Of a DNA stretch of 45,333 bases, positions 2,666 through 45,333 are shown one piece after another. The DNA lies in the NCBI GenBank assembly GCA_007117755.1, contig SKFY01000014.1, positions 1 through 45,333 of the forward strand. Reading direction: 5' to 3'. This DNA is from Candidatus Woesearchaeota archaeon. GTDB lineage: Archaea > Nanobdellota > Nanobdellia > Woesearchaeales > 21-14-0-10-32-9. Every line of letters begins with the position of its first letter. Position 1 is the stretch's first letter. The position numbers and the translations under genes were made by a program. The notes beneath the pieces are model-generated. The model made no database searches and had not been told where the DNA came from. It saw nothing but the letters and a program-made list of their open reading frames with translations.

Positions 2666-2745
2666 GTTTTATTATTTGATTATTTACAGATTTATTAATT
2701 TATCTCATCAATACCTGCTTTTTTTATTACCACTATAACATATAA

Positions 2746-2976: not shown

Positions 2977-2985
2977 AAAAAAGAA

Positions 2986-3558: not shown

Positions 3559-3559
3559 A

Positions 3560-27877: not shown

Positions 27878-27897
27878 CCTTTATTAATAACTTTTTT

Positions 27898-28440: not shown

Positions 28441-28447
28441 TTTATTT

Positions 28448-30386: not shown

Positions 30387-30393
30387 AATAAAA

Positions 30394-30567
30394 TTACCTC
30401 TTTATTAAAAAAAATATTAGTAGTCCTAAATCAACATCTCCCGCGCCTGCTATACCTTCTAATAATCCTCCGCTGTGGTTAAATGCGAGGTATCCTAGTA
30501 GTAAAACTAGCAGTCCTAACACGAAATATATTAGTTCTTGTATTCCTAATGCACCTTTTTTTTTCAT
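30394..30567 (-). CDS. mini pilin-like ORF (57 aa; not in ORF track)
   Basis: Hand translation gives MKKKGALGIQELIYFVLGLLVLLLGYLAFNHSGGLLEGIAGAGDVDLGLLIFFLIKR. Its N-terminus closely parallels that of the 590-aa protein (KKAMGIREVIYWLIGIV). Confidence 0.5.
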   Translation of the reverse strand: MKKKGALGIQELIYFVLGLLVLLLGYLAFNHSGGLLEGIAGAGDVDLGLLIFFLIKR

Positions 30568-30620
30568 CACGTCATCACCCTTGTTGTTAAGTTATTAAAT
30601 CTTTTAATTTTTAAAACTTT

Positions 30621-32012: not shown

Positions 32013-32146
32013 CCGAACGTTACCTCTATCAAATTAAAAAATTCTCCACTTAATGTGTATATGAAATATATTATTACGGCAAGGGTAATAGCTATAGCAA
32101 CCCATTTTCCTAATTCACTAAATAATATATTGGCTTTTTTATTCAA
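32009..32146 (-). CDS. mini pilin-like ORF (45 aa, TTG start; not in ORF track)
   Basis: (M)NKKANILFSELGKWVAIAITLAVIIYFIYTLSGEFFNLIEVTFG. Its TTG overlaps the upstream stop (TTGAATAA) and its TGA overlaps the downstream ATG (ATGA). Length is 138 nt in frame. Confidence 0.45.
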   Translation of the reverse strand: MNKKANILFSELGKWVAIAITLAVIIYFIYTLSGEFFNLIEVTFG

Positions 32147-33473
32147 TTAAATCACACTCATCAAATATTTCACTAGCAGGAGCTATGATCAAAGCATTAT
32201 TACCTATTATGTCCGGACTGAATAATCTGTGATCACTGTCAAAAATTCTTTTGTACCACGCAGGTACGTCACTAGTGCTTACGAAAGCGACGTAGTAAGG
32301 AACAGATATGTTAATATCTTTTACGATAGGAGGGAATCTCATACCATCAGATATTTCAAACATGTAAGAATCACCAGGTATTACGTCAGAGCTTAAATCA
32401 GTTATTTTTAAAGTATCGTGAAGCTCTATTAAAGTATTTATTATAGCCTGGCCTAATTCTTGTACCGAAGAAACTTCAGAGCCTACTCCTTGATAGAAAT
32501 GTTTACTTAGTAAAGGTCTTATTTGTTCTCTTAATATTCTTGATTCATGATCACTGCCTATTAATAAACGCACTTCCTCATTTTGAATACCAAGCATTAA
32601 CATTACTCCTTGACGGGTAGATGCGTTATCTAATGCTATGTTATCAGCTATTTGTCTAGTTCGAGATAATGCTAAGCTATTGAATTCTTCAGCTACTACA
32701 ACAAATAAATCCCCTATGTTATCTTCTCTAAAATCCTGACCTAAACTTTGTATTTCGTTTAAAACATCATGGCTTAGTCTTCCAGAATAATCACTTACGT
32801 AAATGAAGTCGCTTTCATCAATTAATCGAGATCTTATACTTCTATGCATCAGGATTTCATGATCAGAAGGAGGACTTAAACGAGTTTGGAATTCGAAAGA
32901 AGCACTTATATACTCATAACTAGCTCCTCCTCTTAGTACTGGAGGATTATAAACTGTGTTCACCCAATAATTTACTACTTCTTCTGCAGAGATTGTTTTT
33001 TCATTACTATTACCCATATCAGGACGATAATCAATAGGGTAATCACTTATGTTACCTTCGAATTCATCCCCTATAAATCTGAATCTTGAACATACACCAC
33101 AAGCTTTTCCACTCTCCAGTCTTTGCTGTCCAAAAACGTCAAGTACTTGTCCGTCAGCGAATTTATACCAACACTCAGCAGCCAATTCACTTATAGTATT
33201 TAGAGCATCGTCCCTAGTGGATACTTCTACGTCTTTAGCTTCGCCAGTTTTACAAAATAAAGGAGGGAGTATGTCGTCTCCGAATATACCTATGTCTATA
33301 AAGTATCTGTCTCTTGCTAATACCGATTTTCTACACAATTCTATGTCTGCTGAGTCCGTAGCGGCTCTTATTATAGTTGCGTAGGCTATGCTGAGTATTC
33401 CACTAACTAATATTATTAATATTAAAACAACAAGTGTTTTCCTGGTTAATCCTTTTCTATACGCCAATACCAA
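32139..33473 (-). CDS. class III signal protein with a TPM-like domain
   Basis: N-terminus ...YRKG|LTRKTLVVLILIILVSGIL (TTG start at 33473 or 33467). The segment VSDYSGRLSHDVLNEIQSL...LFVVVAEEF...IADNIALDNASTRQGVMLMLGIQNEEVRLLIGSDHESRIL follows the TPM-domain pattern (V.D.A.lLs....l...l...i.vvtv....A..lf..w.iG....nGVLLLva..dR.vRIevGyGLE). Confidence 0.5.
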   Translation of the reverse strand: MVLAYRKGLTRKTLVVLILIILVSGILSIAYATIIRAATDSADIELCRKSVLARDRYFIDIGIFGDDILPPLFCKTGEAKDVEVSTRDDALNTISELAAECWYKFADGQVLDVFGQQRLESGKACGVCSRFRFIGDEFEGNISDYPIDYRPDMGNSNEKTISAEEVVNYWVNTVYNPPVLRGGASYEYISASFEFQTRLSPPSDHEILMHRSIRSRLIDESDFIYVSDYSGRLSHDVLNEIQSLGQDFREDNIGDLFVVVAEEFNSLALSRTRQIADNIALDNASTRQGVMLMLGIQNEEVRLLIGSDHESRILREQIRPLLSKHFYQGVGSEVSSVQELGQAIINTLIELHDTLKITDLSSDVIPGDSYMFEISDGMRFPPIVKDINISVPYYVAFVSTSDVPAWYKRIFDSDHRLFSPDIIGNNALIIAPASEIFDECDLIE

Positions 33474-33573
33474 TCACCCTGGCAGCTATTATTAGTATAG
33501 CTCCACATACTAAAATAGTTAATATAATTATCATTAATTGTTCTAAACTCATTAATCCTTTTTTTTTAACCAT
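33457..33573 (-). CDS. mini pilin-like ORF (38 aa; not in ORF track)
   Basis: MVKKKGLMSLEQLMIIILTILVCGAILIIAARVIGIGV is a class III-type N-terminus and helix only. Its 3' end overlaps the start of the next gene. Confidence 0.45.
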   Translation of the reverse strand: MVKKKGLMSLEQLMIIILTILVCGAILIIAARVIGIGV

Positions 33574-33623
33574 AACTTTCTCATTATGAATAGTCATAGA
33601 AGTGGTATTTAAAAGTTTCTTAA

Positions 33624-35396
33624 TCAGATAATATCAATGTATAATCTGTAATTATCTTGCACACTACTTCCTAGTTGGTTATATAGGCCAACGTTTAACG
33701 TGAATGTTTGTCCGGGTTCGGCACCTGGTATGCTTAAAGGGTTTAAATCTTTACAATCTTTATAAGATATGGTAGTGTCTACCCCGGGTCCTGTTAATGA
33801 TCCTGAACACTTAGCCGTATAATAATCATTTTCAATCCCGAAACTTATGTCTACATGATTATCAAAAGGCGGGTTTAAAGAGGCAGTGACTGTTTTTGTT
33901 CTTTGATTATTCATCTCGTAATCAACACTATTAACTCTAAATGTTAAATAAGGAGGATCTGTTATTACGTTAAAATACCTTCTTTGTTCGTCTACTATTG
34001 TCGCGTCTTCTCGTAATATCGTGATTAATTGATATCTTCCTATATCATCAGATCTTAAAGTTATGAAGTCGCTTAATGATAATTCGCTAGAACAACTACT
34101 TGTATCTCCCCAGACTTCTTGACCTTCTTGGTTTTGTATAGAGTAAGAACAAGTAAGTTCTTCATGGCTTCCAGTATATTTGACAGCGAGTGTTAAAACT
34201 ACTTCTTCGTCTGAAGAAACAGGTATTTCCGCAGGGAATGATTGGAAGTCTAGTAAGTCTTCATAATCGTCTATGCCGAATAAAGTGTATAATCGTGGAG
34301 ATTCAAAACTAGAATCTCTTGTTTGTAAAACCACTCTATACGTTGCTAGTTGAGAAGTGGTTTCTTCTCCGAATAATCTGAAAATTAGTTCATACTCAGC
34401 GTCTCTGATAAAGTTTTCAACATCATAATTTATTCTTATAGGTAATAACATTAAGTTTGAACAGCCTGAAATATCACTTCCTAAAAGATTTTGTGGAGAG
34501 CCAGCTTCGTTTAGTTTCCAGAAGTGGTAACCGCATTGTTTTACATTACTACCTTTGATATTGCTAACTTCTAAAAACACACTACTTAAAAACTCGCTAT
34601 CTTGTTTTAACTTTACTAAATCCACAGGTATTGTATTAACAGCTTCTTTTGAAAGGTGTATTGTTCTTCCATAAAGTTTAAAATCTGCACTAGCAGGAGT
34701 TACTATTTGAGGAGGCGGAGGAGGAGTTACAGGTTCAATAGTTGTCTCATCTGTTACTTCAGGAGGTTCTTCATCCGGAGGTATTACTGTGAAAGGTATT
34801 ATTACACTAGTCAGTATTTCTTCTTCTACACTAACTATTACTGTGAGTGTGTAAGAACCTACTTCTTCTTGAGAAAGACGGAATGTGTTATTGAAAATTT
34901 CTTCATTTTCATCTGTTTTAATGCTCGCTGTATAGTTCCAAGACATGTTGTTAGAAGCTATTCTACCATTGGAATCAGTCATTCTAATACTAAGATTGAA
35001 TTCTCGTATGTTATCAACCCATAATTCATAAGTGTAATTATTAGGAACTTGCAGTGTTTGTCTTTGATTATGCCTTACGACTTCATTATCTTCTTTTCTA
35101 ATTTGTATAATAGGAGGATCTTGAGTATCTACAGGCCTTCCTCCTGGTCTGAAATTAGTAGCGTTTACACAACATACTTGATTGGGGACGATGCTACCGT
35201 CTGATAATTTACATTGAGAAGAAGCTCTTATTTCTTGAGGTCCGCAAGAGTCCCTGCATTCTCCTGGGCAAATGCTTATTTGGTCTCCGAAGGGATCCCA
35301 GGCTTGGTATATACCGTATAAGATAGTTGTGAAAATAACTATGCCTATAAGCCAGTATATTACTTCTCTAATACCCATGGCTTTTTTGTTTAGCAT
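33624..35396 (-). CDS. large pilin-like (class III signal) protein: six-Cys knob, beta-rich repeats and a Pro-rich linker
   Basis: N-terminus MLNKKA|MGIREVIYWLIGIVIFTTILYG. Then ICPGECRDSCGPQEIRASSQCKLSDGSIVPNQVCCVN and the Pro-rich PPDEEPPEVTDETTIEPVTPPPPPQIVTP. Length is 590 aa. Confidence 0.6.
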   Translation of the reverse strand: MLNKKAMGIREVIYWLIGIVIFTTILYGIYQAWDPFGDQISICPGECRDSCGPQEIRASSQCKLSDGSIVPNQVCCVNATNFRPGGRPVDTQDPPIIQIRKEDNEVVRHNQRQTLQVPNNYTYELWVDNIREFNLSIRMTDSNGRIASNNMSWNYTASIKTDENEEIFNNTFRLSQEEVGSYTLTVIVSVEEEILTSVIIPFTVIPPDEEPPEVTDETTIEPVTPPPPPQIVTPASADFKLYGRTIHLSKEAVNTIPVDLVKLKQDSEFLSSVFLEVSNIKGSNVKQCGYHFWKLNEAGSPQNLLGSDISGCSNLMLLPIRINYDVENFIRDAEYELIFRLFGEETTSQLATYRVVLQTRDSSFESPRLYTLFGIDDYEDLLDFQSFPAEIPVSSDEEVVLTLAVKYTGSHEELTCSYSIQNQEGQEVWGDTSSCSSELSLSDFITLRSDDIGRYQLITILREDATIVDEQRRYFNVITDPPYLTFRVNSVDYEMNNQRTKTVTASLNPPFDNHVDISFGIENDYYTAKCSGSLTGPGVDTTISYKDCKDLNPLSIPGAEPGQTFTLNVGLYNQLGSSVQDNYRLYIDII

Positions 35397-35403
35397 GGGA
35401 TTA

Positions 35404-35643
35404 TCAACCCCCTACATGACAACAATAAGGACGATTAGGTTGACAACTATTATCACCATCAGGTAAATGAGCAGGTCCGCAGAATTCGGCTTGACACCTA
35501 CCTCCTAATCTGCTACAAGAAGCCGCGTCGTCCCAGCCATCCGCTGTGGTAAAGAATATATAAATCAGAGTTACCATAACTAACAGAGCTATTATTACAA
35601 CAACGACTGTAGTTATGGTTAATTCTGCTTTTTTATTTATCAT
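35404..35643 (-). CDS. small type IV pilin-like protein with a six-cysteine knob (candidate major subunit)
   Basis: 79 aa. MINKKA|ELTITTVVVVIIALLVMVTLIYIFF, then SCSRLGGRCQAEFCGPAHLPDGDNSCQPNRPYCCHVGG. Confidence 0.6.
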   Translation of the reverse strand: MINKKAELTITTVVVVIIALLVMVTLIYIFFTTADGWDDAASCSRLGGRCQAEFCGPAHLPDGDNSCQPNRPYCCHVGG

Positions 35644-35668
35644 ACTTTTGACAACTCACTTCTTTTTA

Positions 35669-35935
35669 TTATTGTGGTACACAACAAACTTCTCCATCAG
35701 GACATGAATAGCTAGGAGCTCTAACGTACGTAACATCTGGATTAGCTAGTGTTAATTCTTCACAACCTAGTTCTACTGGTTGACACTGAGCATCTCTTTC
35801 TAGAGAAACACATCTAGTTCCTTCGAAGACACTAGAACCTGCATTGAATACTAAAACTGCTAATATAACAAGTACTATCATAGCTAACGCCGCTGCTACG
35901 ACAACATTAAGACTTAATTCTGCTTTTTTAAACAT
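35669..35935 (-). CDS. small type IV pilin-like protein with a six-cysteine knob (candidate major subunit)
   Basis: 88 aa. MFKKA|ELSLNVVVAAALAMIVLVILAVLVF, then RCVSLERDAQCQPVELGCEELT...YSCPDGEVCCVPQ. GAGGTG lies 7 nt upstream of the ATG. Confidence 0.6.
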   Translation of the reverse strand: MFKKAELSLNVVVAAALAMIVLVILAVLVFNAGSSVFEGTRCVSLERDAQCQPVELGCEELTLANPDVTYVRAPSYSCPDGEVCCVPQ

Positions 35936-36011
35936 TATGACACCTCTTAGTTTACAAGGACTATTCTCATTTATAAATTTTTCTAAAAACCACGCCTAAA
36001 AAAAGTTTTTT

Positions 36012-36527
36012 TTATGTGCAGATTCTTATTTTAAAAAATACTACGACGTTGGTAAAACCTTCCCTTACGTTTTTAGGCGTGAATAATTCAAAACCTTGCC
36101 TGTTTTCAGCACATTCATTGGCTAAATAAGTTATTGTTCCAGAAGGACTTGTACGACTCACATTTATAAAGTATCTTAAGCCATACTCGTCAAAAGTATC
36201 ACCTACCATTTCTTTAAGAGTATCGTTAAAAAAAACACAAGCATCATAATAATCCCCGCATTCAAAAGTAGGCAGATCAAGTATACATTGTTCTAATACT
36301 TCACCCATATTTTTTTGTTTATCATTAGCGTCTTTACAAACAGTTTCGCTGTTAAAAAAAGCCGTTGCGAAATTCTCAATTAATTGACGTTCAGCAAAGG
36401 AATCATCGGGAGCCACCGATGAATCAGAAGAGTCTAATAAGAATACTAGTACGAAAAATAAAACTAGTGTTATTAATATAACTATTATTAACAAACCTAC
36501 TATTTCCATCTGGCTTTTTTTTCTCAT
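36012..36527 (-). CDS. type IV pilin-like (class III signal) protein, minor-pilin candidate
   Basis: MRKKS|QMEIVGLLIIVILITLVLFFVLVFLL. Its ATG overlaps the upstream stop (ATGA). Confidence 0.55.
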   Translation of the reverse strand: MRKKSQMEIVGLLIIVILITLVLFFVLVFLLDSSDSSVAPDDSFAERQLIENFATAFFNSETVCKDANDKQKNMGEVLEQCILDLPTFECGDYYDACVFFNDTLKEMVGDTFDEYGLRYFINVSRTSPSGTITYLANECAENRQGFELFTPKNVREGFTNVVVFFKIRICT

Positions 36528-37003
36528 TGAACACTAACCTCTAATATTGCAAAATAAGTTTTTTTATCTACGGGATGATAAACATTAATTGGATAAAAAG
36601 TTCTTTCTATACGCCTATTTTCTTGTAAATTATCAAAGAAGTTTATTGATTCATTGATTTGAAGAGTGGTGTTTAAATCATCATATATTATCAATGTTAA
36701 GTTAACATTGCCCATTCTTCTTATGTAATAAGGGTCGTCTTGTAAATTCTTAAAAGCTTTAACTTTAAAATAATCAAAGCATTTGTAACCTATAGTAGCT
36801 ACTTCACTTGTACAAGTGAATTCTTCCATGTTAGATATTCTTAAACTGGTGCTTAAAATGTCTAGATCAGACTCGTCTTCTAGTAAAGATTGTGTCTGGG
36901 TAGTTCTGAAATTGGATAAATAAACTAATCCTATGATTATTAAAATCATTACTATTATAACTACGGTTATTGATTCCCCGCTTTGAATTTGTGCTTTTTT
37001 CAT
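36524..37003 (-). CDS. type IV pilin-like (class III signal) protein, minor-pilin candidate
   Basis: MKKA|QIQSGESITVVIIVMILIIIGLVYL; 159 aa. Confidence 0.55.
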   Translation of the reverse strand: MKKAQIQSGESITVVIIVMILIIIGLVYLSNFRTTQTQSLLEDESDLDILSTSLRISNMEEFTCTSEVATIGYKCFDYFKVKAFKNLQDDPYYIRRMGNVNLTLIIYDDLNTTLQINESINFFDNLQENRRIERTFYPINVYHPVDKKTYFAILEVSVQ

Positions 37004-37027
37004 TATTAACTAATCCTTATTTGTTTT

Positions 37028-37876
37028 TTAATATATTCTTGGAAGATTACGGTTTCTTAAAAGATCATTAACCGAAGCCAATTCATTCCTATTAGCAGGA
37101 CTCGGTATTTCTTCTTCTTCAAATATAGGTAGTACTTGGTGATAAAAAGTTATGCTTACCGATTCGTTTAATTCGTAAGTCCTATTGTAATAAACTTTAT
37201 TTATAGCCCTAGTTCTTTCCTGTATTTTATCCATTGTGCAATTAAATAAATCTTCATCACCAGTTATTATAAAACCCATTTTTAAAACATCAATATCAAT
37301 ACCTTCATATTCAACTCCATTAACAACCAAATCATCACCTGTTACGTCTATGTTTATAACATCTCTAAAACCAGGAGGAACATAATTTAACGACTTGGAT
37401 ATTTCACCCGGGAACAAATCAAAATAATACTTTGCATCATTTGAAAAGTTATAATGCGTCATGTTATCAACTAAAAAAGTCACTCTCCCCACAGGATAAG
37501 GCACATTTAAAACAGTAGACCAACTTATTAATCTAGACTCCCCCACCCTAGGAGGAGAAAACAATAAGTCTTGTTCTAAATGAACACTACCCACACTATT
37601 TTCTAAAGAAAACCTATGACCATCAATACCACAAGAAAATATGAGTAAACGATTAAAAGGAGTCGTGGATATCCTAACACTATCCACACTAGACTCGTAA
37701 GAACTCAGAACAATACTCATTCTTTCCATCACAGTCCTTCCTAATTGATCAGAAGTAGCATCAGTTTCGAAACTAATGACGTTATAAAACAATACTAATA
37801 TCGCAGCTCCAGCTACTAATACGAACACCCAATTAAAAGATATTTCTATTTGAGCTTTATTAAACATGAAAACCAT
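37028..37876 (-). CDS. type IV pilin-like (class III signal) protein, minor-pilin candidate
   Basis: MVFMFNKA|QIEISFNWVFVLVAGAAILVLFY. AGGTGAAGG lies upstream of ATG 37876. An alternative ATG is at 37867. Confidence 0.55.
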   Translation of the reverse strand: MVFMFNKAQIEISFNWVFVLVAGAAILVLFYNVISFETDATSDQLGRTVMERMSIVLSSYESSVDSVRISTTPFNRLLIFSCGIDGHRFSLENSVGSVHLEQDLLFSPPRVGESRLISWSTVLNVPYPVGRVTFLVDNMTHYNFSNDAKYYFDLFPGEISKSLNYVPPGFRDVINIDVTGDDLVVNGVEYEGIDIDVLKMGFIITGDEDLFNCTMDKIQERTRAINKVYYNRTYELNESVSITFYHQVLPIFEEEEIPSPANRNELASVNDLLRNRNLPRIY

Positions 37877-37912
37877 TATAAAACCTTCACCTTAAAAAAT
37901 TTTTTTTATTAA

Positions 37913-38383
37913 TTATTCATCAACACTAATCACGACTTCTCCACGATGACCAAGCATGACAAAAGATATGCTACCCACAGAGGATTCTGCACAAGTAATA
38001 TTTTGCCCAGCATATAAATTATCAAATCGTAACGCGTCAATTAAAATGTTATCATCAAATAAGAATATGTTATTATGATCATCAAGACTTAACTCAGTCC
38101 CTATTATATCAGTCGCAGCAAGATCATGCGCCCCGCCTTCATCGTTATTTGCGAAACAAACACTACTTATATAATTAGATCTGTACTCAACATCCCTAAC
38201 ACTACCATGACTAGTAGTCCTAGACAAATCCCTTAATAAGTCAGATTTTAAACGAACCAGTTCGACTTCTTCACCCCTATCTAAAATATTAATAATACTC
38301 CTATAACCAACTAATAATAAAGCACCAACTACTAATATAACCATTAAATAAATAAAAACTTGTTGAACTTGTGATTTTCTCAT
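37913..38383 (-). CDS. type IV pilin-like (class III signal) protein, minor-pilin candidate
   Basis: MRKS|QVQQVFIYLMVILVVGALLLVGY. It starts 1 nt after the stop of the giant gene. Confidence 0.55.
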   Translation of the reverse strand: MRKSQVQQVFIYLMVILVVGALLLVGYRSIINILDRGEEVELVRLKSDLLRDLSRTTSHGSVRDVEYRSNYISSVCFANNDEGGAHDLAATDIIGTELSLDDHNNIFLFDDNILIDALRFDNLYAGQNITCAESSVGSISFVMLGHRGEVVISVDE

Positions 38384-38384
38384 T

Positions 38385-41300
38385 TTATATCTTTTTTAGT
38401 TTGTCAAAAATCTCATCTTGAGATAAAGATTCGAATTCATCAGATTTTTTATCAGAATCAGATTTTTTAGAGGTTTTGCTTTTGTCAGAGTCAGATTTGG
38501 ATTCAGTCTTTTTTTCTTGTTTTTTAGTTTGAGAAGAAGACGAAGAGGATGAAGAGGCTGAAGAAGTTGAAGATGATGAAGACGAGCTTGTTTTTTTAGA
38601 CGAATCACTAGACTGAGATTCAGAACTTGATTTAGAGCCAGACGTGGTTTTATCACTAGATTGTTGTTTCTTAGCAGACGAGCTTGTTTTTTTATCTTTA
38701 GATTCGAACTCTTTGAACAATTTCTTTCTCGTGTCTAATCTGTTTTTTAAAGCCATTTTAGCTTTTCTTTCTCTTTCTTCAGTCACACTAATATCTTCTA
38801 CTTTTTCAAGTTGCACCTTGTTAGGAGATTCTTCAAATTCTTCTATATTCTTATTAAGACCAGGAGATGAATTAATACTACCCCCCCTACTTCCTCCTTT
38901 TTTTTGCTTATTATAATAATCAAATATTATCAATCCTAAGCCTATTAAGAAGCTTATTAAAGCTAACACCCACATAAGTTTAGAATCTCTTTCAGTGACA
39001 TCTTCAACAATAGTGTCTTGTCTAGGCGTTGTACAAATATTGTTTTCACAATAACCAGTTATACAGTCACTGTGCTGTTGACATTTCTGATCCACGTTAC
39101 AAGGTTCACAAGGACCTCCACAATCTATATCAGACTCACCCTGATTCTTAATACCATCAAAGCAAGAAGCAGCAGCACAAATACCATCTTCACAGTTCAA
39201 GCTTTCACAGTCACTATCCACAAAGCAAGACCTGCCCTCTGTACAAGCTACGCAGTTAGGTCCTCCACAATCTATATCAGACTCACCCTGATTCTTAATA
39301 CCATCAAAGCAAGAAGCAGCAGCACAAATACCTTGAGGATTACAATAGCCAGAGTCACAATCTTCATCAGCTGTACAAGTATTGCCTGTGCTACAAGGTT
39401 CACAAGGACCTCCACAATCTATGCCTGTTTCTCCAAGGTCCGCATCCATTCTATTGTTGAAACAATGTGGAGGATATTCGAAAGTTACGATTTCTGAATT
39501 ATTAAATTCGTTATTGTTTTTGTCTTGTACAGAGTAACAAACCCTAGCAGTGCTGCTTAGTGTGAAGAATCCTGTATTAGCCATTATGTTCTTATCAAAA
39601 GTACATTCTTCGTCTAAATCTTTATGGATGCTATACCTGGCTTGTTCATCACAACCACTGTGATCATCATGACACATAACACTTATTTCATAGGTTCCGT
39701 CCGCTCTCAAGTTTTTATCAAGTCTTCCAAGAGGAGGTGTGAAGTCACATCTTATATTTTCTGGTTCTAATACTCTGGAGAATCTTTGACTCCAGTCGCC
39801 GTAGTTGCCAGCTTTATCAACGGCTCTGACTATTATTTGAACTTCTTCTCCAATTATAGATTCTCTGTCGAAGACAAGTCTGTCAATTGGTACATTAGCA
39901 GACCTTGATGAAGTGGTACGATTATAAAATACTGACTCGTTATACTCGTTATCGTAAACAGCTACGCTATATTCGTAATGGTCAATTCCTGAAATCCTAT
40001 CTTCAGCTCTGAAACTAAAGCTTATGGTATCTCCACAAATATTGTCATCTAGTGTTATGTTTACTTCTGAAGGTTTGGAAGTGTCTCTTAAAACGTTTCT
40101 AGCAACTACGTTATCAAATTGCGCGTTTTCACAATAAGCTCTTATTGTGTGTCTTCCTAATTCAAAGTTTTCTTGAGCTGTGTAAACATTAATACCCTCT
40201 ACATAGCTAGGATCGTCAAATCTTACGAATGAATCCGGAGTGTTGTTATTAATAGAATAGTAACAAGTATCTCTTAGTACTGTTTCCAGAATTATTTCTT
40301 GAGATTCTTCGTTGAAGTGAGTAGGTGGAGCTACTATTCTGATTACTTGATCCTCACTCATATCAGATGTTAAAGTCGCAGTCCTAGAATTTTCTAAGCC
40401 CGCAAGGTTAGTACACGTAACGGTTATGTCAAAATCTCTAGTTTCTGGTATTATTTCTGAGAATACGTTTTCTTCGTCGTAAGTAGTGCTGAAGTCAGTT
40501 AAGTATGATGGTTGTGACTGCGCACTTCTTTGGAATCCACCTTCTAACAATCCTTCAACTTCTAGCTGTAAACTATTCAAAGTACAGTAACTAGGAATAT
40601 TAGTCTCTACAATTGTTTCAAAGCTTTTCCTATTAGTATCAGTTACTGTTTCAGGATCGAATTCTAAAGTATCAATGCTTGGAGGATTAGGGTATGAACC
40701 AACAGCAATGCTAGCGTAGTGATGCCAGTTAATACTTTCTTCATAACACACTATGTTAAGAGCGTATGTTCTTTCCTCGCTTAGTTCTCCAAGTGAGAAG
40801 TTTGTAGCTGTGTGTATTCTTCCATTAGGTGTGAATTCATTAGAGTAATCTGCGTATAATTGTGAAGGCGCTCTGTTTTGAGTGTTACCTAAGCTATATT
40901 TACAATGTACGTCTTCTCTTTCTGTTTCTATAACAATATCATAACTGGACTCTTCACTAAATGCGAAGTTAGGATTTTCTATAGGTGTAGTTAAAGGCTC
41001 TAACACTACTACTTCTAAAGTATCCATACCTGCTCTTTCTACACAGAATTGATCATTAGGATCTCTTAAAGTGACTGTTCTGTCAACAATATTTCCTTTG
41101 TTGCCAGATTCAGATACAGCTCTTACTAATATGGTTAAGTCTGTTTCATGATAATCAAGGCCGCCGTATAATTCATTAAGATCGACACTTAACACTCCTT
41201 GTTCTCCTTCTACGATTTCATCTCTTAAAACATTGTTATTCGCCCCTGTTAAAACATATTCGTAGTGAGAAATTTCTGAGTATAAAGATTCGGCTTCGAA

Positions 41301-44300
41301 AGTCATGTCTAACACTTCAGTACATACATCATCCTGAACCCTTATGAATGTGTCATAAGGAGGTTGGTTATCAACTAGTACTGTTTGACTTATAACATTA
41401 GGATCTCTTTCACACATAGCATATACAGTGTTATAACCTGATTCTAATTGTAAGCGAGTAAAGTATAAGTGTTCTTCCATATCAACACTGGACAAGTCTA
41501 TTACTTCTTCACTTCCAGAGTCCATACCTGAGAATAGAGTTTCTGCTAATTGTTCTATGTTGAAATAATGCTCTAGATAATCTTCGAATTCTTGGAAATT
41601 ATTAGTATCTCCTATAGAGTATAAACAATTATCTTCAACAGTGGCTTGTAATAATAATGGAACTACATCACTTGTTGAAAATTCAGATACTAATATGTCA
41701 AAGCTTTGAGTCGTAGTCATGTCAGTTCTTAAATTTTTAACTACTGAACTTGTTAAGCCACTTAAGGATTCACAAGTTAAATTAATAGGGAACTCTCTAG
41801 GCGTGGTTAAAGGATCTTCAAATCTCTTACTTAATTCTTCATATTCTGTTCTGTAATCATCTAAGTTTATAGGTGTGAAAGAAGGATTTCTTATGAAACC
41901 ACCCATGGTTAATTGTTCTAATTCTTCACTTTCAAATCTACAAATAGTAGGTATGTCTGAGTAAGCAAATAAGTTATAACTTCTTCCTATACCATCTTTT
42001 ATTAATTCTGGAACGAGGAATAATTCTATTTCTGGTTCGTCAGGGTAAAACCCTGTTCTTATAGTATCTCCTTTGTATTGTCCGAATTCATCAGTACAAA
42101 TAATTGTTAAGTCATAAATTTGATTAACACCTTCAAGTCCTAAGCTTAAATCTTCTAATACGAAGAGTACATCACTGACTTTTTCTAAAGTGTTTAAAGG
42201 ATGGTTTCTGAATTCTCTTTCGAACTCATCTTCAGATAAGGATAAGAAGTTATACCTACATTCCTCTACAGGTCTGTGAGTTCTTATTTTTATATCAAAT
42301 ACTTCTTCATGACTAAATGCTAAATCAGTTATGCCGTAAGGATTTCTAGGCTCTTCTACTTTTATATCTAAATAATCGTAACCTAATTCTTCTAAGCATG
42401 TTTGAGACGCCGCTGGGTGTATGAATATTTCATCACTCACTCTTTGTCCTTTGTTGCCTAATTTGTCTATTGCTGAAGCAAATGCTTGGATTGTGAATCC
42501 TTCGTAAACTTTTCTGTTACCAGCTGTGTTAAATAGTTCTAAAACGTCTATATCTGTTTGTTGTGTGAATCCACTTCTTACTATTTCGTTGTTGTCTGTA
42601 TGAGTGGCTATTATTTCATATTCATAATTTTCTATACCTACTCCTTCATCGAAGGCGTTTAGTAATTCTAACTGTATGTTGTTTAAACAGTTGTCTTTTA
42701 AATTCACTTCTAAACCTACAGGTCCTTGGTCATCACGATAAGCCCATGTTGTTATGGTTTCTTCATCGTCACACCAAGCACTTATTGTATTGTTACCTCT
42801 TTGTATGTTGAAGTTTGCTGAATAAACAAGGTCTTCTCCTAATACTAATTGTTTTTCTACTCCCCCTGTTTGGGCTCTACAACTCATGTCATCTCTGAAG
42901 CCTCTGATTTTTACGTCTACATTATCTTGTTTTGTGTAATGCCCGCTTTGCAAGTCTCCTATGAATGTGTAATTAGTGTTGAGAGTCATGTCTGTAGATA
43001 CAACTGCTCTTTCTGTTGAGTGAAGACCGCTTAAAGAGTAACAAGTAATGTCAATATTGAATAATCTGTTACTTGGTATGTATTCTTCAAAGACATTATT
43101 TTCTTCATATAAAGTGTTGTAGTTTTCAACACTTGTTGTTATTAAATAAGCGTTGTTGAAATCACTTCTTAATTCATTAGCTAATAAAGCATCAGGTTCT
43201 GCGAAACAATAACTAGGGATGTCTGTTTCAGTTGACACCTTAAAGCTTCTAATAAGGCCACTAGTTATAGGTGAAGGAATAATTTCTACGTTCATAGTAG
43301 GTTCTTCATAGGCGCCTACCAATATTTTTTCTCCGAAGAATAAGTCTATGAATTCTGTTGATTCTCTACATATTATGAATAATTCTTCAGCATCTCCTAC
43401 GAATAATTCTTGTACGGAGTGTTGTAATCCGTTAATTGATTCTAGAACTTGCTGACTATAAGTTCCGTAAGTAAAGGATAAGTTTCTGCCAAATCCTTCA
43501 AAGCCATATCTACAATCTACGCTCCTATCAGTTCTTAGTGTTAAATCAATAGATTCGTCAGGGCTGAAAGCGTTAAGTTCTTCTACGTATTCATTAGTAG
43601 GGTTTAAAATTTCTATGTTTAAGCTGTCTAGTTGTCTTTGTCTTAAACAATAATCAGAATTGACTTCTTGTACTAAGAAATCAGTAGATAAAGAATCTCC
43701 TTTATTGCCTAATTTGTCAACGTTACGAGCTTCAACTCTTAAAACACCACCTTCTAGGCTAGCTCTGTTGCTTAAGCCTAGTTTTTCTAAGGCGCTAAAT
43801 TCTGAAGTTGTAAAGCCTTTAGCAGAGTGAGAGTTAGATCCATAAGTAAATGTTAAGTCGTATTCGTAATGTTCAAATCCTATACCTGTATCTATTCCTC
43901 CACGGAATTCGACAGTTATATCATTTACACAATCATCAAATATATTCGCGTCAATACCTGTTGGTCCTCTATCGTCTTTGTAAACCCAGGTGTTAATATT
44001 ATTACCGTTACAAATTACGTCTACAGAGTAATTTCCATAATTGTTAAAGTTAAATGCTGAAGAGTAAATTCTTAAGTTATTATTGACTGATTCTGATAAT
44101 GTGCCTGTGCTTTCACCATTAACTGTGTAAGAACAAGACATTCCCGGAACTAAAGATTCTACAACGATGTCTAAGTCGTCTGTGAAGAATACTTCTGAAG
44201 AGCTTGATGCGAACCAGAAATCAGTAGTGTCTGTCATGTTAGATATTAATAATGTGCTTGCTGTAGAGCTCTGACTTGATAAAGAGTAACACGTTACGCT

Positions 44301-45333
44301 TGCAGGGAATGTCGTGTAGTCTTCTAAATAATCGCTTATTTCTGTTTGTATGGAGTAAGTGTTTTGGTAATCGCTTAGAGTAGTGGGATTATATGAAGTT
44401 CTTGAAAATGAGTTTTTAACAGATGCACTTATTAATTCGTCTGCTTCAAAGATACAGTAACTTGGCACATCAGTAGTTACTTTTAATTCATATGCTCTGT
44501 TTGCTAAGTGTGAAATTTCTGTAGGTATGAATTCAAAGCTTTCTATGATAGGAGCTTGGTAAGTTCCTACTTTAATACCTTTATATCTGTAATAAGTTTT
44601 TTGTGAGTACGGGTCTGATTCTCTACAAATAATGTGGAGAACTTCGTTATTTTCCACGTCTAAATCAGTGGTTGTGTGAGTTAGGCCGTTCTTGTTGAAA
44701 GTATTGGCTGCGAAGTTTCCGAAGCTTCTGTTAAGGTTGCTTTGATCGAAGTAGTCAAAGCCGTACCTACATTCTTCTACTGCTCTTTCTGTTCTAATGG
44801 TTAAATCAAATACTTGTTGGTCGTGGTAAGCGTTAACTTCTTCTATGTAAGGATTCGTGGGTGATTCTACTATTATGTCTAATCCGCTGTATCCTCTGAC
44901 TCCTTCACAATAAGGTGCTAGTACGTTTTCTATTTCTGTGTTTTCTGTTATTTCTGCGTAGTTTCCTATTTCATCTATAGCTTTTAATTGGATTGTTAAT
45001 GTTCCTTCTATTTCGTTTCTTGTTTTTCCTAGTATTTCTAGTACGTTTATAGTTGGTGAATTAGGATTGGCAGATCCTTCTTTTTCTTGTTGACCGTTTA
45101 AGCTTAAGGTGTAGTTGAATCTTTGTATTTCAGCGAATAATGTTTGGTCAGCATCGAAAGTTGCTGTTATAGATCCTCTACAATCATCAACTACTTCTAT
45201 GCTTAGATTGGTTGGTGGTTGATCGTCTCTTATTACTGTTCTTGATACTGATTCATAGCTTCCTGGTTCTCCACAATAAGCCACTATTGTATTTTCTCCA
45301 CGGGCGAAGTCACGTGTTGCTCTGAATTCGTGC
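38385..45333 (-). CDS. giant modular surface protein (5' end outside the window): at least 5 large modules, three Cys-rich repeats, a TM helix and a Ser/Lys-rich tail
   Basis: The frame stays open to the window edge. The track's 'M' at 45284 is an internal GTG; upstream codons read ...HEFRATRDFARGENTIVAYCGEP with no stop. More than 2,315 aa are visible. See the repeat features and findings. Confidence 0.85.
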   Translation of the reverse strand, partial: HEFRATRDFARGENTIVAYCGEPGSYESVSRTVIRDDQPPTNLSIEVVDDCRGSITATFDADQTLFAEIQRFNYTLSLNGQQEKEGSANPNSPTINVLEILGKTRNEIEGTLTIQLKAIDEIGNYAEITENTEIENVLAPYCEGVRGYSGLDIIVESPTNPYIEEVNAYHDQQVFDLTIRTERAVEECRYGFDYFDQSNLNRSFGNFAANTFNKNGLTHTTTDLDVENNEVLHIICRESDPYSQKTYYRYKGIKVGTYQAPIIESFEFIPTEISHLANRAYELKVTTDVPSYCIFEADELISASVKNSFSRTSYNPTTLSDYQNTYSIQTEISDYLEDYTTFPASVTCYSLSSQSSTASTLLISNMTDTTDFWFASSSSEVFFTDDLDIVVESLVPGMSCSYTVNGESTGTLSESVNNNLRIYSSAFNFNNYGNYSVDVICNGNNINTWVYKDDRGPTGIDANIFDDCVNDITVEFRGGIDTGIGFEHYEYDLTFTYGSNSHSAKGFTTSEFSALEKLGLSNRASLEGGVLRVEARNVDKLGNKGDSLSTDFLVQEVNSDYCLRQRQLDSLNIEILNPTNEYVEELNAFSPDESIDLTLRTDRSVDCRYGFEGFGRNLSFTYGTYSQQVLESINGLQHSVQELFVGDAEELFIICRESTEFIDLFFGEKILVGAYEEPTMNVEIIPSPITSGLIRSFKVSTETDIPSYCFAEPDALLANELRSDFNNAYLITTSVENYNTLYEENNVFEEYIPSNRLFNIDITCYSLSGLHSTERAVVSTDMTLNTNYTFIGDLQSGHYTKQDNVDVKIRGFRDDMSCRAQTGGVEKQLVLGEDLVYSANFNIQRGNNTISAWCDDEETITTWAYRDDQGPVGLEVNLKDNCLNNIQLELLNAFDEGVGIENYEYEIIATHTDNNEIVRSGFTQQTDIDVLELFNTAGNRKVYEGFTIQAFASAIDKLGNKGQRVSDEIFIHPAASQTCLEELGYDYLDIKVEEPRNPYGITDLAFSHEEVFDIKIRTHRPVEECRYNFLSLSEDEFEREFRNHPLNTLEKVSDVLFVLEDLSLGLEGVNQIYDLTIICTDEFGQYKGDTIRTGFYPDEPEIELFLVPELIKDGIGRSYNLFAYSDIPTICRFESEELEQLTMGGFIRNPSFTPINLDDYRTEYEELSKRFEDPLTTPREFPINLTCESLSGLTSSVVKNLRTDMTTTQSFDILVSEFSTSDVVPLLLQATVEDNCLYSIGDTNNFQEFEDYLEHYFNIEQLAETLFSGMDSGSEEVIDLSSVDMEEHLYFTRLQLESGYNTVYAMCERDPNVISQTVLVDNQPPYDTFIRVQDDVCTEVLDMTFEAESLYSEISHYEYVLTGANNNVLRDEIVEGEQGVLSVDLNELYGGLDYHETDLTILVRAVSESGNKGNIVDRTVTLRDPNDQFCVERAGMDTLEVVVLEPLTTPIENPNFAFSEESSYDIVIETEREDVHCKYSLGNTQNRAPSQLYADYSNEFTPNGRIHTATNFSLGELSEERTYALNIVCYEESINWHHYASIAVGSYPNPPSIDTLEFDPETVTDTNRKSFETIVETNIPSYCTLNSLQLEVEGLLEGGFQRSAQSQPSYLTDFSTTYDEENVFSEIIPETRDFDITVTCTNLAGLENSRTATLTSDMSEDQVIRIVAPPTHFNEESQEIILETVLRDTCYYSINNNTPDSFVRFDDPSYVEGINVYTAQENFELGRHTIRAYCENAQFDNVVARNVLRDTSKPSEVNITLDDNICGDTISFSFRAEDRISGIDHYEYSVAVYDNEYNESVFYNRTTSSRSANVPIDRLVFDRESIIGEEVQIIVRAVDKAGNYGDWSQRFSRVLEPENIRCDFTPPLGRLDKNLRADGTYEISVMCHDDHSGCDEQARYSIHKDLDEECTFDKNIMANTGFFTLSSTARVCYSVQDKNNNEFNNSEIVTFEYPPHCFNNRMDADLGETGIDCGGPCEPCSTGNTCTADEDCDSGYCNPQGICAAASCFDGIKNQGESDIDCGGPNCVACTEGRSCFVDSDCESLNCEDGICAAASCFDGIKNQGESDIDCGGPCEPCNVDQKCQQHSDCITGYCENNICTTPRQDTIVEDVTERDSKLMWVLALISFLIGLGLIIFDYYNKQKKGGSRGGSINSSPGLNKNIEEFEESPNKVQLEKVEDISVTEERERKAKMALKNRLDTRKKLFKEFESKDKKTSSSAKKQQSSDKTTSGSKSSSESQSSDSSKKTSSSSSSSTSSASSSSSSSSQTKKQEKKTESKSDSDKSKTSKKSDSDKKSDEFESLSQDEIFDKLKKI
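39115..39185. repeat. copy 1 of a perfect 71-nt direct repeat
   Basis: cctccacaatctatatcagactcaccctgattcttaataccatcaaagcaagaagcagcagcacaaatacc is identical to 39262-39332. Confidence 0.9.
39262..39332. repeat. copy 2 of a perfect 71-nt direct repeat (offset 147 nt = 49 codons)
   Basis: Identical string to 39115-39185. Both copies encode GICAAASCFDGIKNQGESDIDCGG. A diverged third copy lies at ~39408-39430. Confidence 0.9.
39735..45333 (-). repeat. protein-level tandem modules of ~415-455 aa (diverged at the DNA level)
   Basis: Module starts are marked by a recurring anchor: RDDQPP (nt ~45230), KDDRGP (~43979), RDDQGP (~42737), VDNQPP (~41375) and RDTSKP (~40088). Each anchor is followed by ..DD.C......F......G.-.YEY, D-x-x-GN-x-G, NPY...VFDL.IRT.R.VEECRY, IIC.E, (D)IPSYC and TC.SLSGL landmarks. 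The tail of a further module sits at the window edge. Confidence 0.8.

What the first reader, a model, noticed from the sequence alone, without database searches (positions are those of the whole stretch)
38385..45333. Giant surface protein (more than 2,315 aa visible) built from at least five ~415-455-aa super-modules, with its N-terminus beyond the window
Hand alignment shows the same ordered landmarks recurring with periods of 417, 414, 454 and 429 aa. The landmarks are RDDQPP-like, an Ig-like unit with (H)YEY and a D-x-x-GN-x-G end motif, C....G.D.L.I.V.EP.NPY, VFDL.IRT.R.VEECRY, IIC.E, YP.P, (D)IPSYC and TC.SLSGL. The D.(A/L)GN motif is typical of bacterial-type Ig-like adhesin domains. 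The modules are strongly diverged at the DNA level, so they are old rather than an assembly artefact. The frame is still open at nt 45333, which sits in the tail of a sixth module. Because the start is unseen, it is unknown whether this protein also carries a class III signal.
Basis: seen in the sequence. Interest (0 to 1): 0.78.

Follow-up and report, generated by a model that had tools for sequence, protein, structure and literature searches.

The report
Giant archaeal surface stalk protein
This is a real, very long membrane-anchored cell-surface protein of a tiny Woesearchaeota (DPANN) archaeon, made long by repeating a four-domain cassette, and it heads a conserved gene cluster that probably serves contact with other cells.

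Summary
The minus-strand frame 38385-45333 is open to the window edge, giving 2,315 aa. It holds four complete super-modules of 417, 414, 454 and 429 aa, plus partial ones at both ends. The modules share 23-39% protein identity and almost no DNA identity, so they are old duplications, not an assembly artefact.

Each module is four beta-sandwich (Ig-like) domains, which I call A, B, C and D, with exactly 8 cysteines. After the modules come a fifth A, a further Ig-like domain E, three 8-Cys repeats F, one transmembrane helix and a 175-aa basic cytoplasmic tail.

No Pfam, NCBIfam or PDB-sequence family reaches threshold. An exhaustive profile search of 1.84 billion proteins found only 88 relatives; every one that carries an organism name is Woesearchaeota or Nanoarchaeota.

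The canonical relative is about 1,000 aa: Sec signal, N-domain, B-C-D-A-E-FFF, TM helix, tail. In six other loci it sits at the same position of a colinear cluster: Memo, large secreted proteins, this protein, 12-16 downstream genes (most with class-III-signal starts), a TPM protein and a peptidoglycan amidase. The window protein is therefore a positional ortholog lengthened by lineage-specific BCDA duplication.

The most likely role is a long, disulfide-stapled stalk or adhesin for host contact. That function is inferred, not shown. The N-terminus could not be recovered.

The parts
45231..45332 (-). aa 1-34: C-terminal end of a D domain from an upstream cassette. The gene continues beyond the window edge.
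   Evidence: translation. The motif 'RGENTIVAYC' matches 'G.NT..A.C' at the ends of the D domains in alignment A2.
43980..45230 (-). Super-module 1 (aa 35-451, 417 aa). Domains: A 44925-45230, B 44568-44924, C 44250-44567, D 43980-44249. 8 Cys.
   Evidence: AF2 model of this module: all-beta, four sandwich domains, pLDDT 69.
42738..43979 (-). Super-module 2 (aa 452-865, 414 aa), A-B-C-D, 8 Cys.
41376..42737 (-). Super-module 3 (aa 866-1319, 454 aa), A-B-C-D, 8 Cys. It has a ~30-aa insertion in D.
40089..41375 (-). Super-module 4 (aa 1320-1748, 429 aa), A-B-C-D, 8 Cys. It is the most diverged module and is orthologous to the last cassette of locus L010 (the 915-aa alignment spanning M4 to the tail is 45% identical).
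   Evidence: AF2 model of B-C-D of this module plus A5 and E: pLDDT 84.5.
39756..40088 (-). Fifth A domain (aa 1749-1859), carrying HYEY and VDKAGN. It is not followed by B-C-D.
39474..39755 (-). Domain E (aa 1860-1953), 'CDFTPP...SGC...YS.H...C.F', 5 Cys, a beta-sandwich. It is present once in nearly all family members.
   Evidence: (invariant columns).
39018..39473 (-). Three F repeats (aa 1954-2105) of ~49 aa with 8 Cys each: 'C.dG..N.gE.d.DCGG.C..C...C...DC....C....C'. F2 and F3 share a 75-nt near-identical DNA repeat.
   Evidence: F-type repeats are widespread in other archaea and bacteria.
38922..38978 (-). Single transmembrane helix (aa 2119-2137, LMWVLALISFLIGLGLIIF), followed by a K-rich stretch (positive-inside).
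38388..38921 (-). Cytoplasmic tail: 178 aa by these coordinates (aa 2138-2315). The last 175 aa have pI 9.6, 28% Ser and no Cys. It carries the family's conserved short motifs: TRKKLFKEF, DEFESLS and DEIFDKLKKI at the very C-terminus. The stop codon is at 38385-38387.
25089..38383 (-). Co-oriented downstream cluster, starting 1 nt after the giant gene's stop. It holds 14 genes with class-III-signal-like N-termini. These include two tiny Cys-rich pilin-like genes (35404-35643, 35669-35935), a BspA-LRR protein (30621-32012), a TPM-domain protein (32139-33473) and an Amidase_2 protein (26714-27877). A Sec-signal protein follows at 25089-26717.
   Evidence: BLASTP finds positional orthologs for ten window ORFs from 37913 down to 28448 in L001 and L004, and for six of them in L005. 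The gene order and gene sizes recur in L006-L008.

Best explanation
The gene encodes a type I membrane protein of a Woesearchaeota (DPANN) archaeon. By homology it has an N-terminal Sec signal, which is not visible here. It has a very long, acidic, disulfide-stapled extracellular rod of Ig-like beta-sandwich domains, then three 8-Cys knots next to the membrane, one TM helix, and a disordered basic cytoplasmic tail with three conserved short motifs.

It is the positional ortholog of a ~1,000-aa family protein with the architecture signal, N-domain, B-C-D-A-E-FFF, TM, tail. It has been lengthened by lineage-specific tandem duplication of the four-domain B-C-D-A cassette: four complete copies and part of a fifth are visible. 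About 19 Ig-like domains are visible, so the rod would reach roughly 70-80 nm if extended. That length is my inference from about 4 nm per domain.

The gene is the last large gene before a run of class-III-signal (type IV pilin-like) genes, which includes a pilin-like peptidoglycan amidase, and the two appear to be co-transcribed.

I propose that the protein is the membrane-anchored stalk or adhesin of a cell-contact apparatus. It would hold a distal head (its own N-terminal part) far from the archaeal membrane to bind a partner cell. The pilin-like proteins and wall hydrolases would act on the partner's envelope. The tail motifs would tie the stalk to a cytoplasmic partner.

Shown: the architecture, the repeat history, the family, the topology logic and the synteny. 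Inferred: adhesion, a host that has peptidoglycan, co-operation with the pilins, and the role of the tail.
For: Repeats and domains:
- define the modules.
- There are 8 Cys per module, 8 per F repeat and none in the tail. The ectodomain has pI 4.2 and the tail pI 9.6.
- The AF2 model of B-C-D-A-E has pLDDT 84.5 and shows five beta-sandwiches.
- Foldseek finds strings of Ig/FN3 domains: NCAM2 2jll at 2.6e-13, PTPdelta 4yfg, Aureispira grappling-hook GhpA 9flv/9flw, MpIBP and LapA-type extender repeats 4p99/5irb/6xi3, and Haloferax S-layer csg 7ptp.

Family:
- There are 88 hits among 1.84e9 representatives.
- The named ones are Woesearchaeota or Nanoarchaeota.
- The canonical B-C-D-A-E-FFF-TM-tail architecture with a Sec-type signal is seen in about 20 representatives.

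Synteny and evolution:
- Six loci share the synteny, with the family protein ranging from 964 to 3,026 aa at the same slot. Neighbour orthology is shown by BLASTP.
- The window's B domains are each other's best hits, so the expansion is lineage-specific.
- The closer relative L010 (45% identity over 915 aa) is also multi-cassette.
- In P0004, P0001 and P0024 the separate upstream secreted protein is fused to the N-terminus of the family protein. The match is 39% identity over 930 aa with E=6e-169. This links the stalk to a distal head.

Other:
- The tail motifs are conserved across the family.
- Giant membrane-anchored Ig-rich acidic surface proteins are already proposed as host-interaction devices in other DPANN archaea (PMC10266531).
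- Pili-like contacts between ultrasmall cells and hosts have been imaged (PMC7906910).
Against: - There is no functional, expression or localisation data.
- No recognisable ligand-binding or enzymatic domain lies in the visible part, and the tip is outside the window.
- N-glycosylation sequons are not enriched: 15 found against about 24.5 expected.
- No TFF ATPase, platform protein or prepilin peptidase is seen in the window or within 10 kb either side of the family gene in the related loci. The link to a pilus machine is by neighbourhood only.
- The Foldseek similarities are generic for tandem Ig arrays (TM-scores 0.2-0.37). The best TM-score is to an archaeal S-layer protein.
- The host is unknown.
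Confidence: 0.6

Rival explanations
1. The family is the S-layer protein, or an S-layer-like pillar or scaffold, of these Woesearchaeota. In this reading the Ig-like array anchored by a C-terminal TM helix builds or supports the cell wall, or locally remodels it so that the co-encoded pilus-like filament can pass. The giant form is just a taller spacer, not an adhesin.
For: - The highest Foldseek TM-score (0.37) is to the Haloferax volcanii S-layer protein 7ptp, and Deinococcus HPI 8cka is also hit.
- C-terminal membrane anchoring and an acidic ectodomain are typical of archaeal S-layer proteins (my own knowledge).
- S-layer-like multi-Ig proteins encoded inside archaeal type-IV-filament loci have been noted (bioRxiv 10.64898/2026.04.22.720090; PMC6393860).
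- The family occupies one slot per locus.
Against: - Positional orthologs range from 964 aa to more than 3,000 aa. That is hard to reconcile with a lattice of fixed geometry.
- There is a long cytoplasmic tail with conserved linear motifs.
- Sequons are not enriched.
- There is no PGF-CTERM or other known S-layer anchor.
- The family was detected in only 88 representatives.
Confidence: 0.22
2. The protein is itself a subunit or tip adhesin of the pilus-like filament encoded downstream. It would be class-III-signal processed and carried on the filament, rather than being an integral membrane protein.
For: The gene sits immediately upstream of 14 class-III-signal genes, 1 nt from the next start. 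In related loci a ~1,000-aa class-III-signal protein lies two genes upstream.
Against: All full-length family members seen have Sec-type signals with A-x-A-like cleavage regions, not the K-[GA]-Q type. They also have a C-terminal TM helix with a positive-inside cytoplasmic tail. That fixes them in the producer's membrane.
Confidence: 0.05
3. The repeat structure or length is an assembly artefact (collapsed or expanded repeats, or a chimeric contig), or the gene is a decaying pseudogene.
For: An independent ENA assembly of the same organism (L009, 99.84% identical over 12.2 kb) breaks inside this gene, at window position 39187.
Against: - That break is at the 75-nt F2/F3 repeat, not in the modules.
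- The modules share almost no DNA identity.
- The ORF is uninterrupted over 6.9 kb in DNA of 34-38% GC.
- All 8 cysteines are conserved in every module.
- Relatives with the same multi-cassette layout exist in other assemblies.
Confidence: 0.03

Closest known systems
Unnamed Woesearchaeota 'hypothetical protein' family with architecture signal-Ndom-B-C-D-A-E-FFF-TM-tail (e.g. P0012 993 aa, P0008 1125 aa; giant forms MFT4261176.1 3026 aa, MCC7574058.1 2291 aa, MFT4311220.1 4593 aa)
   Same: Same domains in the same order, the same 8-Cys F repeats, TM helix and tail motifs, and the same genomic slot in a colinear cluster.
   Different: The window protein has four complete B-C-D-A cassettes and part of a fifth, instead of one. 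Its expansion is independent of the one in P0001/P0002/P0004, which repeat B-C-D largely without A. Its tail has a unique poly-Ser tract.
Giant membrane-anchored surface proteins of Nanohaloarchaeota ('SPEARE' proteins, e.g. SVXNc_0300, 9,409 aa)
   Same: DPANN archaea. Sec signal, a huge acidic ectodomain (pI ~4) with tandem Ig-like/fibronectin-like domains, membrane anchoring, and a proposed role in host interaction (PMC10266531).
   Different: No detectable sequence relationship. The SPEARE-type proteins carry a VirB4/TraG-like ATPase domain and sit next to another such ATPase. Here the cytoplasmic part is a 175-aa disordered tail with short motifs, and the neighbours are pilin-like proteins and a peptidoglycan amidase.
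Bacterial giant RTX adhesins with Ig-like extender regions (MpIBP, LapA-type; PDB 4p99, 5irb, 6xi3)
   Same: A long rod of tandem beta-sandwich domains that projects a distal binding region. These are the top Foldseek hits for module 1.
   Different: In those proteins the repeats are near-identical single ~100-aa domains, secreted by T1SS with C-terminal RTX repeats, and retained in an outer membrane (my own knowledge). Here a heterogeneous four-domain cassette at 23-39% identity is stapled by disulfides and anchored by a C-terminal TM helix in an archaeal membrane.
Metazoan Ig-superfamily/FN3 cell-adhesion receptors (NCAM2 2jll, PTPdelta 4yfg)
   Same: Type I topology, an extracellular string of Ig/FN3-like domains with one disulfide-type Cys pair per domain, a single TM helix and a cytoplasmic tail. 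These are the best Foldseek E-values.
   Different: There is no sequence homology; the resemblance is architectural only. The tail has no kinase or phosphatase domain or any other known domain.
Haloferax volcanii S-layer glycoprotein csg (PDB 7ptp)
   Same: An archaeal surface protein made of consecutive Ig-like domains, anchored at its C-terminus. It has the highest Foldseek TM-score, 0.37.
   Different: csg forms a lattice, is lipid-anchored and heavily glycosylated, and has a fixed length (my own knowledge). Here the length varies more than threefold among orthologs, sequons are not enriched, and there is a TM helix plus a long tail.

Membership tests
Woesearchaeota B-C-D-A-E-FFF-TM-tail family (unnamed) | Domains B, C, D, A, E in this order, detectable with profiles | tested here: met
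   Local HMMs give the window architecture A-BCDA-BCDA-BCDA-BCDA-E-FFF. About 20 representatives show BCDAEFFF. The profile search scores reach 1.5e-107.
Woesearchaeota B-C-D-A-E-FFF-TM-tail family (unnamed) | Membrane-proximal 8-Cys F repeats, one C-terminal TM helix, and a basic tail carrying the R[KR]x[LIF][FL]xxF and DD[VI]FxKLKx[IM] motifs | tested here: met
   Window: three F repeats, TM helix at aa 2119-2137, TRKKLFKEF and DEIFDKLKKI.
Woesearchaeota B-C-D-A-E-FFF-TM-tail family (unnamed) | Genomic slot directly upstream of the colinear class-III-signal / TPM / Amidase_2 cluster | tested here: met
   Six loci share the layout. BLASTP finds positional orthologs of ten window neighbours in L001 and L004, and of six in L005, at 23-45% identity.
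Woesearchaeota B-C-D-A-E-FFF-TM-tail family (unnamed) | N-terminal Sec-type signal peptide and a ~125-aa N-domain | not testable with these tools
   The N-terminus lies beyond the window. Exact-pattern scans of genome contigs and metagenome contigs found nothing. The only other assembly of this organism stops inside the gene.
Bacterial Ig-like domains (Pfam Big_13 / HYR, NCBIfam barrel_OmpL47) | A score above the curated family threshold | tested here: not met
   Pfam gives 0 families at E<=1. NCBIfam barrel_OmpL47 scores 31.4 bits against a cutoff of 40, and the match is restricted to the D-x-x-GN strand.
Bacterial Ig-like domains (Pfam Big_13 / HYR, NCBIfam barrel_OmpL47) | Beta-sandwich fold with a terminal D-x-x-G-N strand | tested here: met
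   The AF2 models are all-beta. The A-domain profile aligns its last strand onto the ends of Big_13, HYR_4C and fn3 domains in distant hits.
RTX / T1SS giant adhesins (MpIBP, LapA type) | C-terminal RTX nonapeptide repeats with a T1SS signal, and near-identical single-domain extender repeats | tested here: not met
   The C-terminus is a TM helix plus a K/S-rich tail. No RTX/HemolysinCabind Pfam hit was found. The repeats are four-domain cassettes at 23-39% identity.
Archaeal type IV pilin-like proteins (class III signal) | N-terminal [KR]-[GAS]-x cleavage motif directly followed by a hydrophobic helix | not testable with these tools
   The window N-terminus is missing. Full-length family members have Sec-type signals instead, whereas the 14 downstream neighbours do show the motif.
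Archaeal S-layer glycoproteins | Enrichment of N-glycosylation sequons; a lattice-forming protein of roughly constant size among orthologs | tested here: not met
   15 sequons were found against about 24.5 expected from composition. Positional orthologs range from 964 to 3,026 aa or more. Lattice formation itself cannot be tested here.

The most novel reading that the evidence does not exclude
The whole ~25-30 kb cluster would be a Woesearchaeota-specific host-contact organelle. Its parts are secreted Cys-rich 'head' proteins, this TM-anchored Ig-rod, about 14 pilin-like proteins (including pilin-anchored peptidoglycan amidase, LRR and TPM proteins), and wall hydrolases. Within it, the number of B-C-D-A cassettes would act as an evolvable ruler that sets how far the head reaches across a bacterial partner's envelope. 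The conserved tail motifs would couple the rod to a cytoplasmic partner. The rod would then be an archaeal analogue of eukaryotic Ig-superfamily adhesion receptors. The reading implies peptidoglycan-walled (bacterial) hosts for these archaea.
Probability: 0.25. Interest if true: 0.8.

Novelty: new variant of a known kind. Interest (0 to 1): 0.55.

Why it matters
Woesearchaeota are abundant and, as far as I know, have no well-studied cultured representative. Their hosts and their means of attachment are unknown.

This work defines a lineage-restricted, unannotated surface-protein family. No Pfam, NCBIfam or PDB-sequence family reaches threshold. The family has a clear architecture and a fixed place in a conserved cluster of pilin-like proteins and peptidoglycan hydrolases.

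The results give concrete targets for metaproteomics, cryo-ET labelling and binding assays. They offer a testable hint that some Woesearchaeota engage bacteria. They also provide a natural series of orthologs, from about 1,000 aa to more than 3,000 aa, in which rod length changed by cassette duplication and by fusion with the upstream 'head' protein.

Giant Ig-rich surface proteins in DPANN archaea are already known as a class, so the kind is not new.

Tried and rejected
1. The word-index homology search was run three times: with the whole protein, with the protein minus its Cys-rich and tail regions, and with a 13-sequence profile. It returned nothing useful. The exhaustive profile search was needed.
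2. The search for related loci with alignment A3 failed because no stretch of the alignment was conserved enough.
3. I tried to recover the N-terminus in three ways.
   - The exact 60-nt end-of-window pattern is absent from genome contigs and metagenome contigs.
   - Look-up of the 156-aa neighbour found no record.
   - The 282-aa neighbour led to an ENA contig that starts inside the gene, at window position 39187.
4. I tested whether A, B, C and D are diverged copies of one domain. hhalign found no significant relation; the best pair was B against D at probability 39%. The cassette is therefore treated as four distinct domains.
5. Sequon enrichment as a sign of an S-layer-type glycoprotein was not found.
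6. Pfam on the F repeats alone and on canonical members gave nothing above noise. There was only a 14.7-bit Dickkopf sub-domain hit in P0012. The resemblance of F to disintegrin or 'Myxococcus cysteine-rich repeat' motifs is from my memory only and is untested.
7. Five literature searches found no description of this family or cluster. They returned only general statements about DPANN pilin islands and murein hydrolases.
Full report

Yes. Translating the minus strand from 45332 down to 38385 gives 2,315 residues and a single terminal stop. The ORF lister shows a 2,299-aa ORF starting at a GTG at 45284. The 16 residues before that codon still belong to a conserved domain end: '..FARGENTIVAYC..' matches 'G.NT..A.C' in every module. 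The true start is therefore outside the window.

The RDDQPP-like landmarks are at aa 35, 452, 866, 1320 and 1749.

A BLASTP of overlapping 150-aa pieces against the protein gives 33 off-diagonal alignments at those offsets and their sums. Identities are 23-39% and E-values go down to 3e-29. The four complete modules align with 37 invariant columns.

At the DNA level the modules share only three short hits, and no module-scale direct repeat exists. So the repeats are ancient and cannot be an assembly artefact.

The only near-identical DNA repeat is 75 nt, inside the Cys-rich repeats F2 and F3 (39111-39185 and 39258-39332). An independent ENA assembly of the same organism is 99.84% identical over 12.2 kb. 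It breaks exactly there, at 39187. Only the number of F repeats is open to assembly doubt.

**2. Anatomy**

With profiles built from the window I split each module into four parts: A (~105 aa, with HYEY and D-x-x-GN), B (~120 aa), C (~107 aa) and D (~90-120 aa). These parts are not detectably related to one another.

The full layout is: [D-tail] A-BCDA-BCDA-BCDA-BCDA-E-F-F-F, then the TM helix and the tail.

Every module has exactly 8 cysteines, two per domain, at aligned positions. Each F repeat also has 8, E has 5, and the tail has none. This pattern suggests one disulfide per sandwich and three Cys knots near the membrane. That reading is an inference.

The ectodomain is very acidic: pI 4.2, with 17.4% D+E against 6.6% K+R. 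The 175-aa tail has pI 9.6 and 28% Ser. A K-rich stretch follows the single hydrophobic helix, which fits an N-out/C-in type I topology.

The AF2 model of module 1, using only the four window copies, was mediocre: pLDDT 69, with A and B good. With a 13-sequence family alignment, the model of B-C-D-A-E reached pLDDT 84.5 and shows five beta-sandwiches.

Foldseek returns only strings of Ig/FN3-like domains:
- MpIBP and LapA-type extender repeats (4p99, 5irb, 6xi3)
- NCAM2 (2jll, 2.6e-13) and PTPdelta
- titin-like arrays
- Aureispira grappling-hook GhpA fragments (9flv, 9flw)
- the Haloferax S-layer protein 7ptp, with the highest TM-score, 0.37

These matches confirm the fold class. They say nothing specific about function.

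**3. Family**

Pfam finds nothing at E<=1 and PDB sequences give nothing. NCBIfam gives only a sub-threshold barrel_OmpL47 match on the D-x-x-GN strand (31.4 bits, cutoff 40).

That strand also aligns with the ends of Big_13, HYR_4C and fn3 domains in distant hits.

An exhaustive profile search of 1.84 billion representatives found only 88 proteins at E<=1e-3 and 10 at E<=1e-30. All members that carry an organism name are 'Candidatus Woesearchaeota archaeon' or 'Nanoarchaeota archaeon' hypothetical proteins.

The window's own housekeeping genes are archaeal: Hjc, NAC and an RPA-like OB-fold protein. The DNA is 26-38% GC.

About 20 representatives of ~1,000 aa share one architecture. It is a Sec-type signal peptide, a ~125-aa N-domain, then B-C-D-A-E-F-F-F, a TM helix and a 100-290-aa K/E-rich tail.

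The tails are low-complexity but keep three short motifs across the family (also L010):
- R[KR]x[LIF][FL]xxF, about 70-90 aa after the TM helix. In the window this is TRKKLFKEF.
- [DE][YF][IV][DE]LS. In the window this is DEFESLS.
- DD[VI]FxKLKx[IM] near the C-terminus. In the window this is DEIFDKLKKI, at the very end.

**4. Genomic context and evolution**

I obtained the DNA around six family members: L001/L002 (3,026 aa), L004 (2,727 aa), L005 (2,344 aa), L006 (1,004 aa), L007 (964 aa) and L008 (1,378 aa). All show the same gene order:
- a large beta-helix or polysaccharide-lyase-like protein
- Memo
- a ~700-1,100-aa protein, which has a class III signal in the three loci where I read the sequence (L001, L004, L005)
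- a ~1,170-1,380-aa Cys-rich Sec-secreted protein (absent as a separate gene in L004, where it is fused; see below)
- the family protein
- four genes of about 150-185, 280-360, 150-170 and 145-175 aa
- two or three tiny pilin-like genes
- a TPM-domain protein (a Pfam hit in L001/L002, L004 and L008; a gene of matching size in the others)
- several more small genes
- Amidase_2, seen in L001/L002, L004 and L007; in L007 a 3D-domain protein follows. The other loci end before this point.

The window has the same series downstream of the giant gene. BLASTP finds positional orthologs for ten window ORFs (37913 down to 28448) in L001 and L004, and for six of them in L005. The two tiny Cys-rich pilin-like genes are at 35404-35935.

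Fourteen consecutive window products begin with a [KR]-[GAS]-x motif followed by a hydrophobic helix. The next gene starts 1 nt after the giant gene's stop.

The window protein is therefore the positional ortholog of a ~1,000-aa protein.

Its B domains are each other's best matches. A closer relative (L010, 45% identity over 915 aa) also has an A domain in front of its last B-C-D-A. So the cassette multiplied within this lineage.

P0001, P0002 and P0004 expanded independently, using a B-C-D cassette largely without A.

In P0004, P0001 and P0024 the separate upstream Cys-rich protein is fused to the N-terminus of the family protein. The match is 39% identity over 930 aa with E=6e-169. This is a Rosetta-stone link. 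It suggests that the upstream protein, or the N-terminal part, is the distal working end of the rod.

**5. How it most likely works**

What is shown: a type I membrane protein whose exterior is a long series of Ig-like sandwiches. Its length varies more than threefold among orthologs through cassette duplication and fusion. It is encoded at the head of a conserved run of pilin-like genes that includes a peptidoglycan amidase.

What is inferred: the rod is a disulfide-stabilised stalk, roughly 70-80 nm for the visible ~19 domains. It would present a distal head to a partner cell. The pilin-like proteins and hydrolases would act on that partner's wall. The tail motifs would bind a cytoplasmic partner.

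This fits what is proposed for other DPANN giant surface proteins (PMC10266531). It also fits pili-like contacts seen between ultrasmall cells and hosts (PMC7906910), and the reading of murein hydrolases in DPANN MAGs as signs of interaction with bacteria (PMC10936187).

The main rival is a structural S-layer-like pillar or scaffold for the filament, as noted for other archaeal TFF loci. I rate it at about 0.2. My reasons are the length variability, the conserved cytoplasmic motifs and the lack of sequon enrichment.

**6. Novelty and verdict**

Giant, acidic, Ig-rich, membrane-anchored surface proteins are a known kind in DPANN archaea and in bacteria. What is new here:
- an unannotated, lineage-restricted family built from a heterogeneous four-domain cassette
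- its C-terminal E-FFF-TM-tail module with conserved linear motifs
- its fixed slot in a conserved cluster of pilins and hydrolases
- the ortholog series showing repeated, independent elongation

The function remains inferred, and the N-terminus is missing.

My confidence is about 0.9 for the structural and evolutionary description, and about 0.5 for the adhesin or contact function. Interest is 0.55. Novelty is a new variant of a known kind.

Noticed in passing
window 25089-38383 (minus strand): Fourteen consecutive genes have class-III-signal-like N-termini. They include a BspA-type LRR protein (30621-32012), a TPM-domain protein (32139-33473) and an N-acetylmuramoyl-L-alanine amidase (26714-27877) in an archaeon. 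The cluster is colinear with six other Woesearchaeota loci. No TFF ATPase, platform protein or prepilin peptidase was seen nearby.
   Followed up: partly
window 35404-35643 and 35669-35935 (minus strand): Two tiny (79 and 88 aa) pilin-like genes, 'KKAELS/T..' followed by a hydrophobic helix and a Cys-rich C-terminal knob. They are candidates for the major filament subunits. Two or three such genes occur at the same place in the related loci.
   Followed up: partly
window 38388-38921 (cytoplasmic tail of the giant protein); tails of P0002-P0086: Three short linear motifs are conserved across the family inside otherwise low-complexity tails: R[KR]xΦΦxxF, [DE][YF][IV][DE]LS and DDΦFxKLKxΦ. The last is sometimes duplicated. 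Two members (P0033, P0045) add a ~70-aa C-terminal helical domain. The partner is unknown.
   Followed up: partly
window 39018-39473; loci L011-L089: The 8-Cys F repeat is not family-specific. tblastn-confirmed copies occur in many Woesearchaeota and Nanoarchaeota. They also occur in Altiarchaeota, Myxococcales/Polyangiaceae, Bradymonadia, Bdellovibrionales and several Patescibacteria/Saccharibacteria MAGs. This distribution leans towards predatory and episymbiotic microbes, but the search patterns bias it. Many hits are titled 'uncultured Methanosarcinales archaeon' (TPA bins), which may be mislabelled.
   Followed up: partly
L004 10001-18184 (P0004) compared with L001 6409-9909: Gene fusion: the separate ~1,170-aa Cys-rich Sec-secreted protein encoded just upstream in L001 and L005 forms the N-terminal ~900 aa of P0004, and partly of P0001 and P0024.
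   Followed up: yes
window 39187; L009 (ENA ERZ27301260 k141_1145006): An independent assembly of the same organism (99.84% identity) ends exactly at the 75-nt F2/F3 repeat inside the giant gene. This shows where short-read assemblies of this gene fail.
   Followed up: yes
window 26714-38383 and 38385-45333 compared with 1-24000: By eye, the exported proteins of the cluster look strongly acidic and poor in Lys, while the cytoplasmic proteins in the window look Lys-rich. Only the giant protein was quantified (ectodomain pI 4.2). This may reflect a saline habitat or cation binding at the surface.
   Followed up: no
window 1469-4390 and 7798-8286: A group of accessory-looking genes: a 2'-5' RNA ligase-like protein (1469-1993), GrpB (2141-2665), a membrane-anchored DUF4258-like protein (2986-3558), and an RlaP nucleotidyltransferase of an RNA-repair pathway (3560-4390). 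This may be a small accessory or repair island.
   Followed up: no
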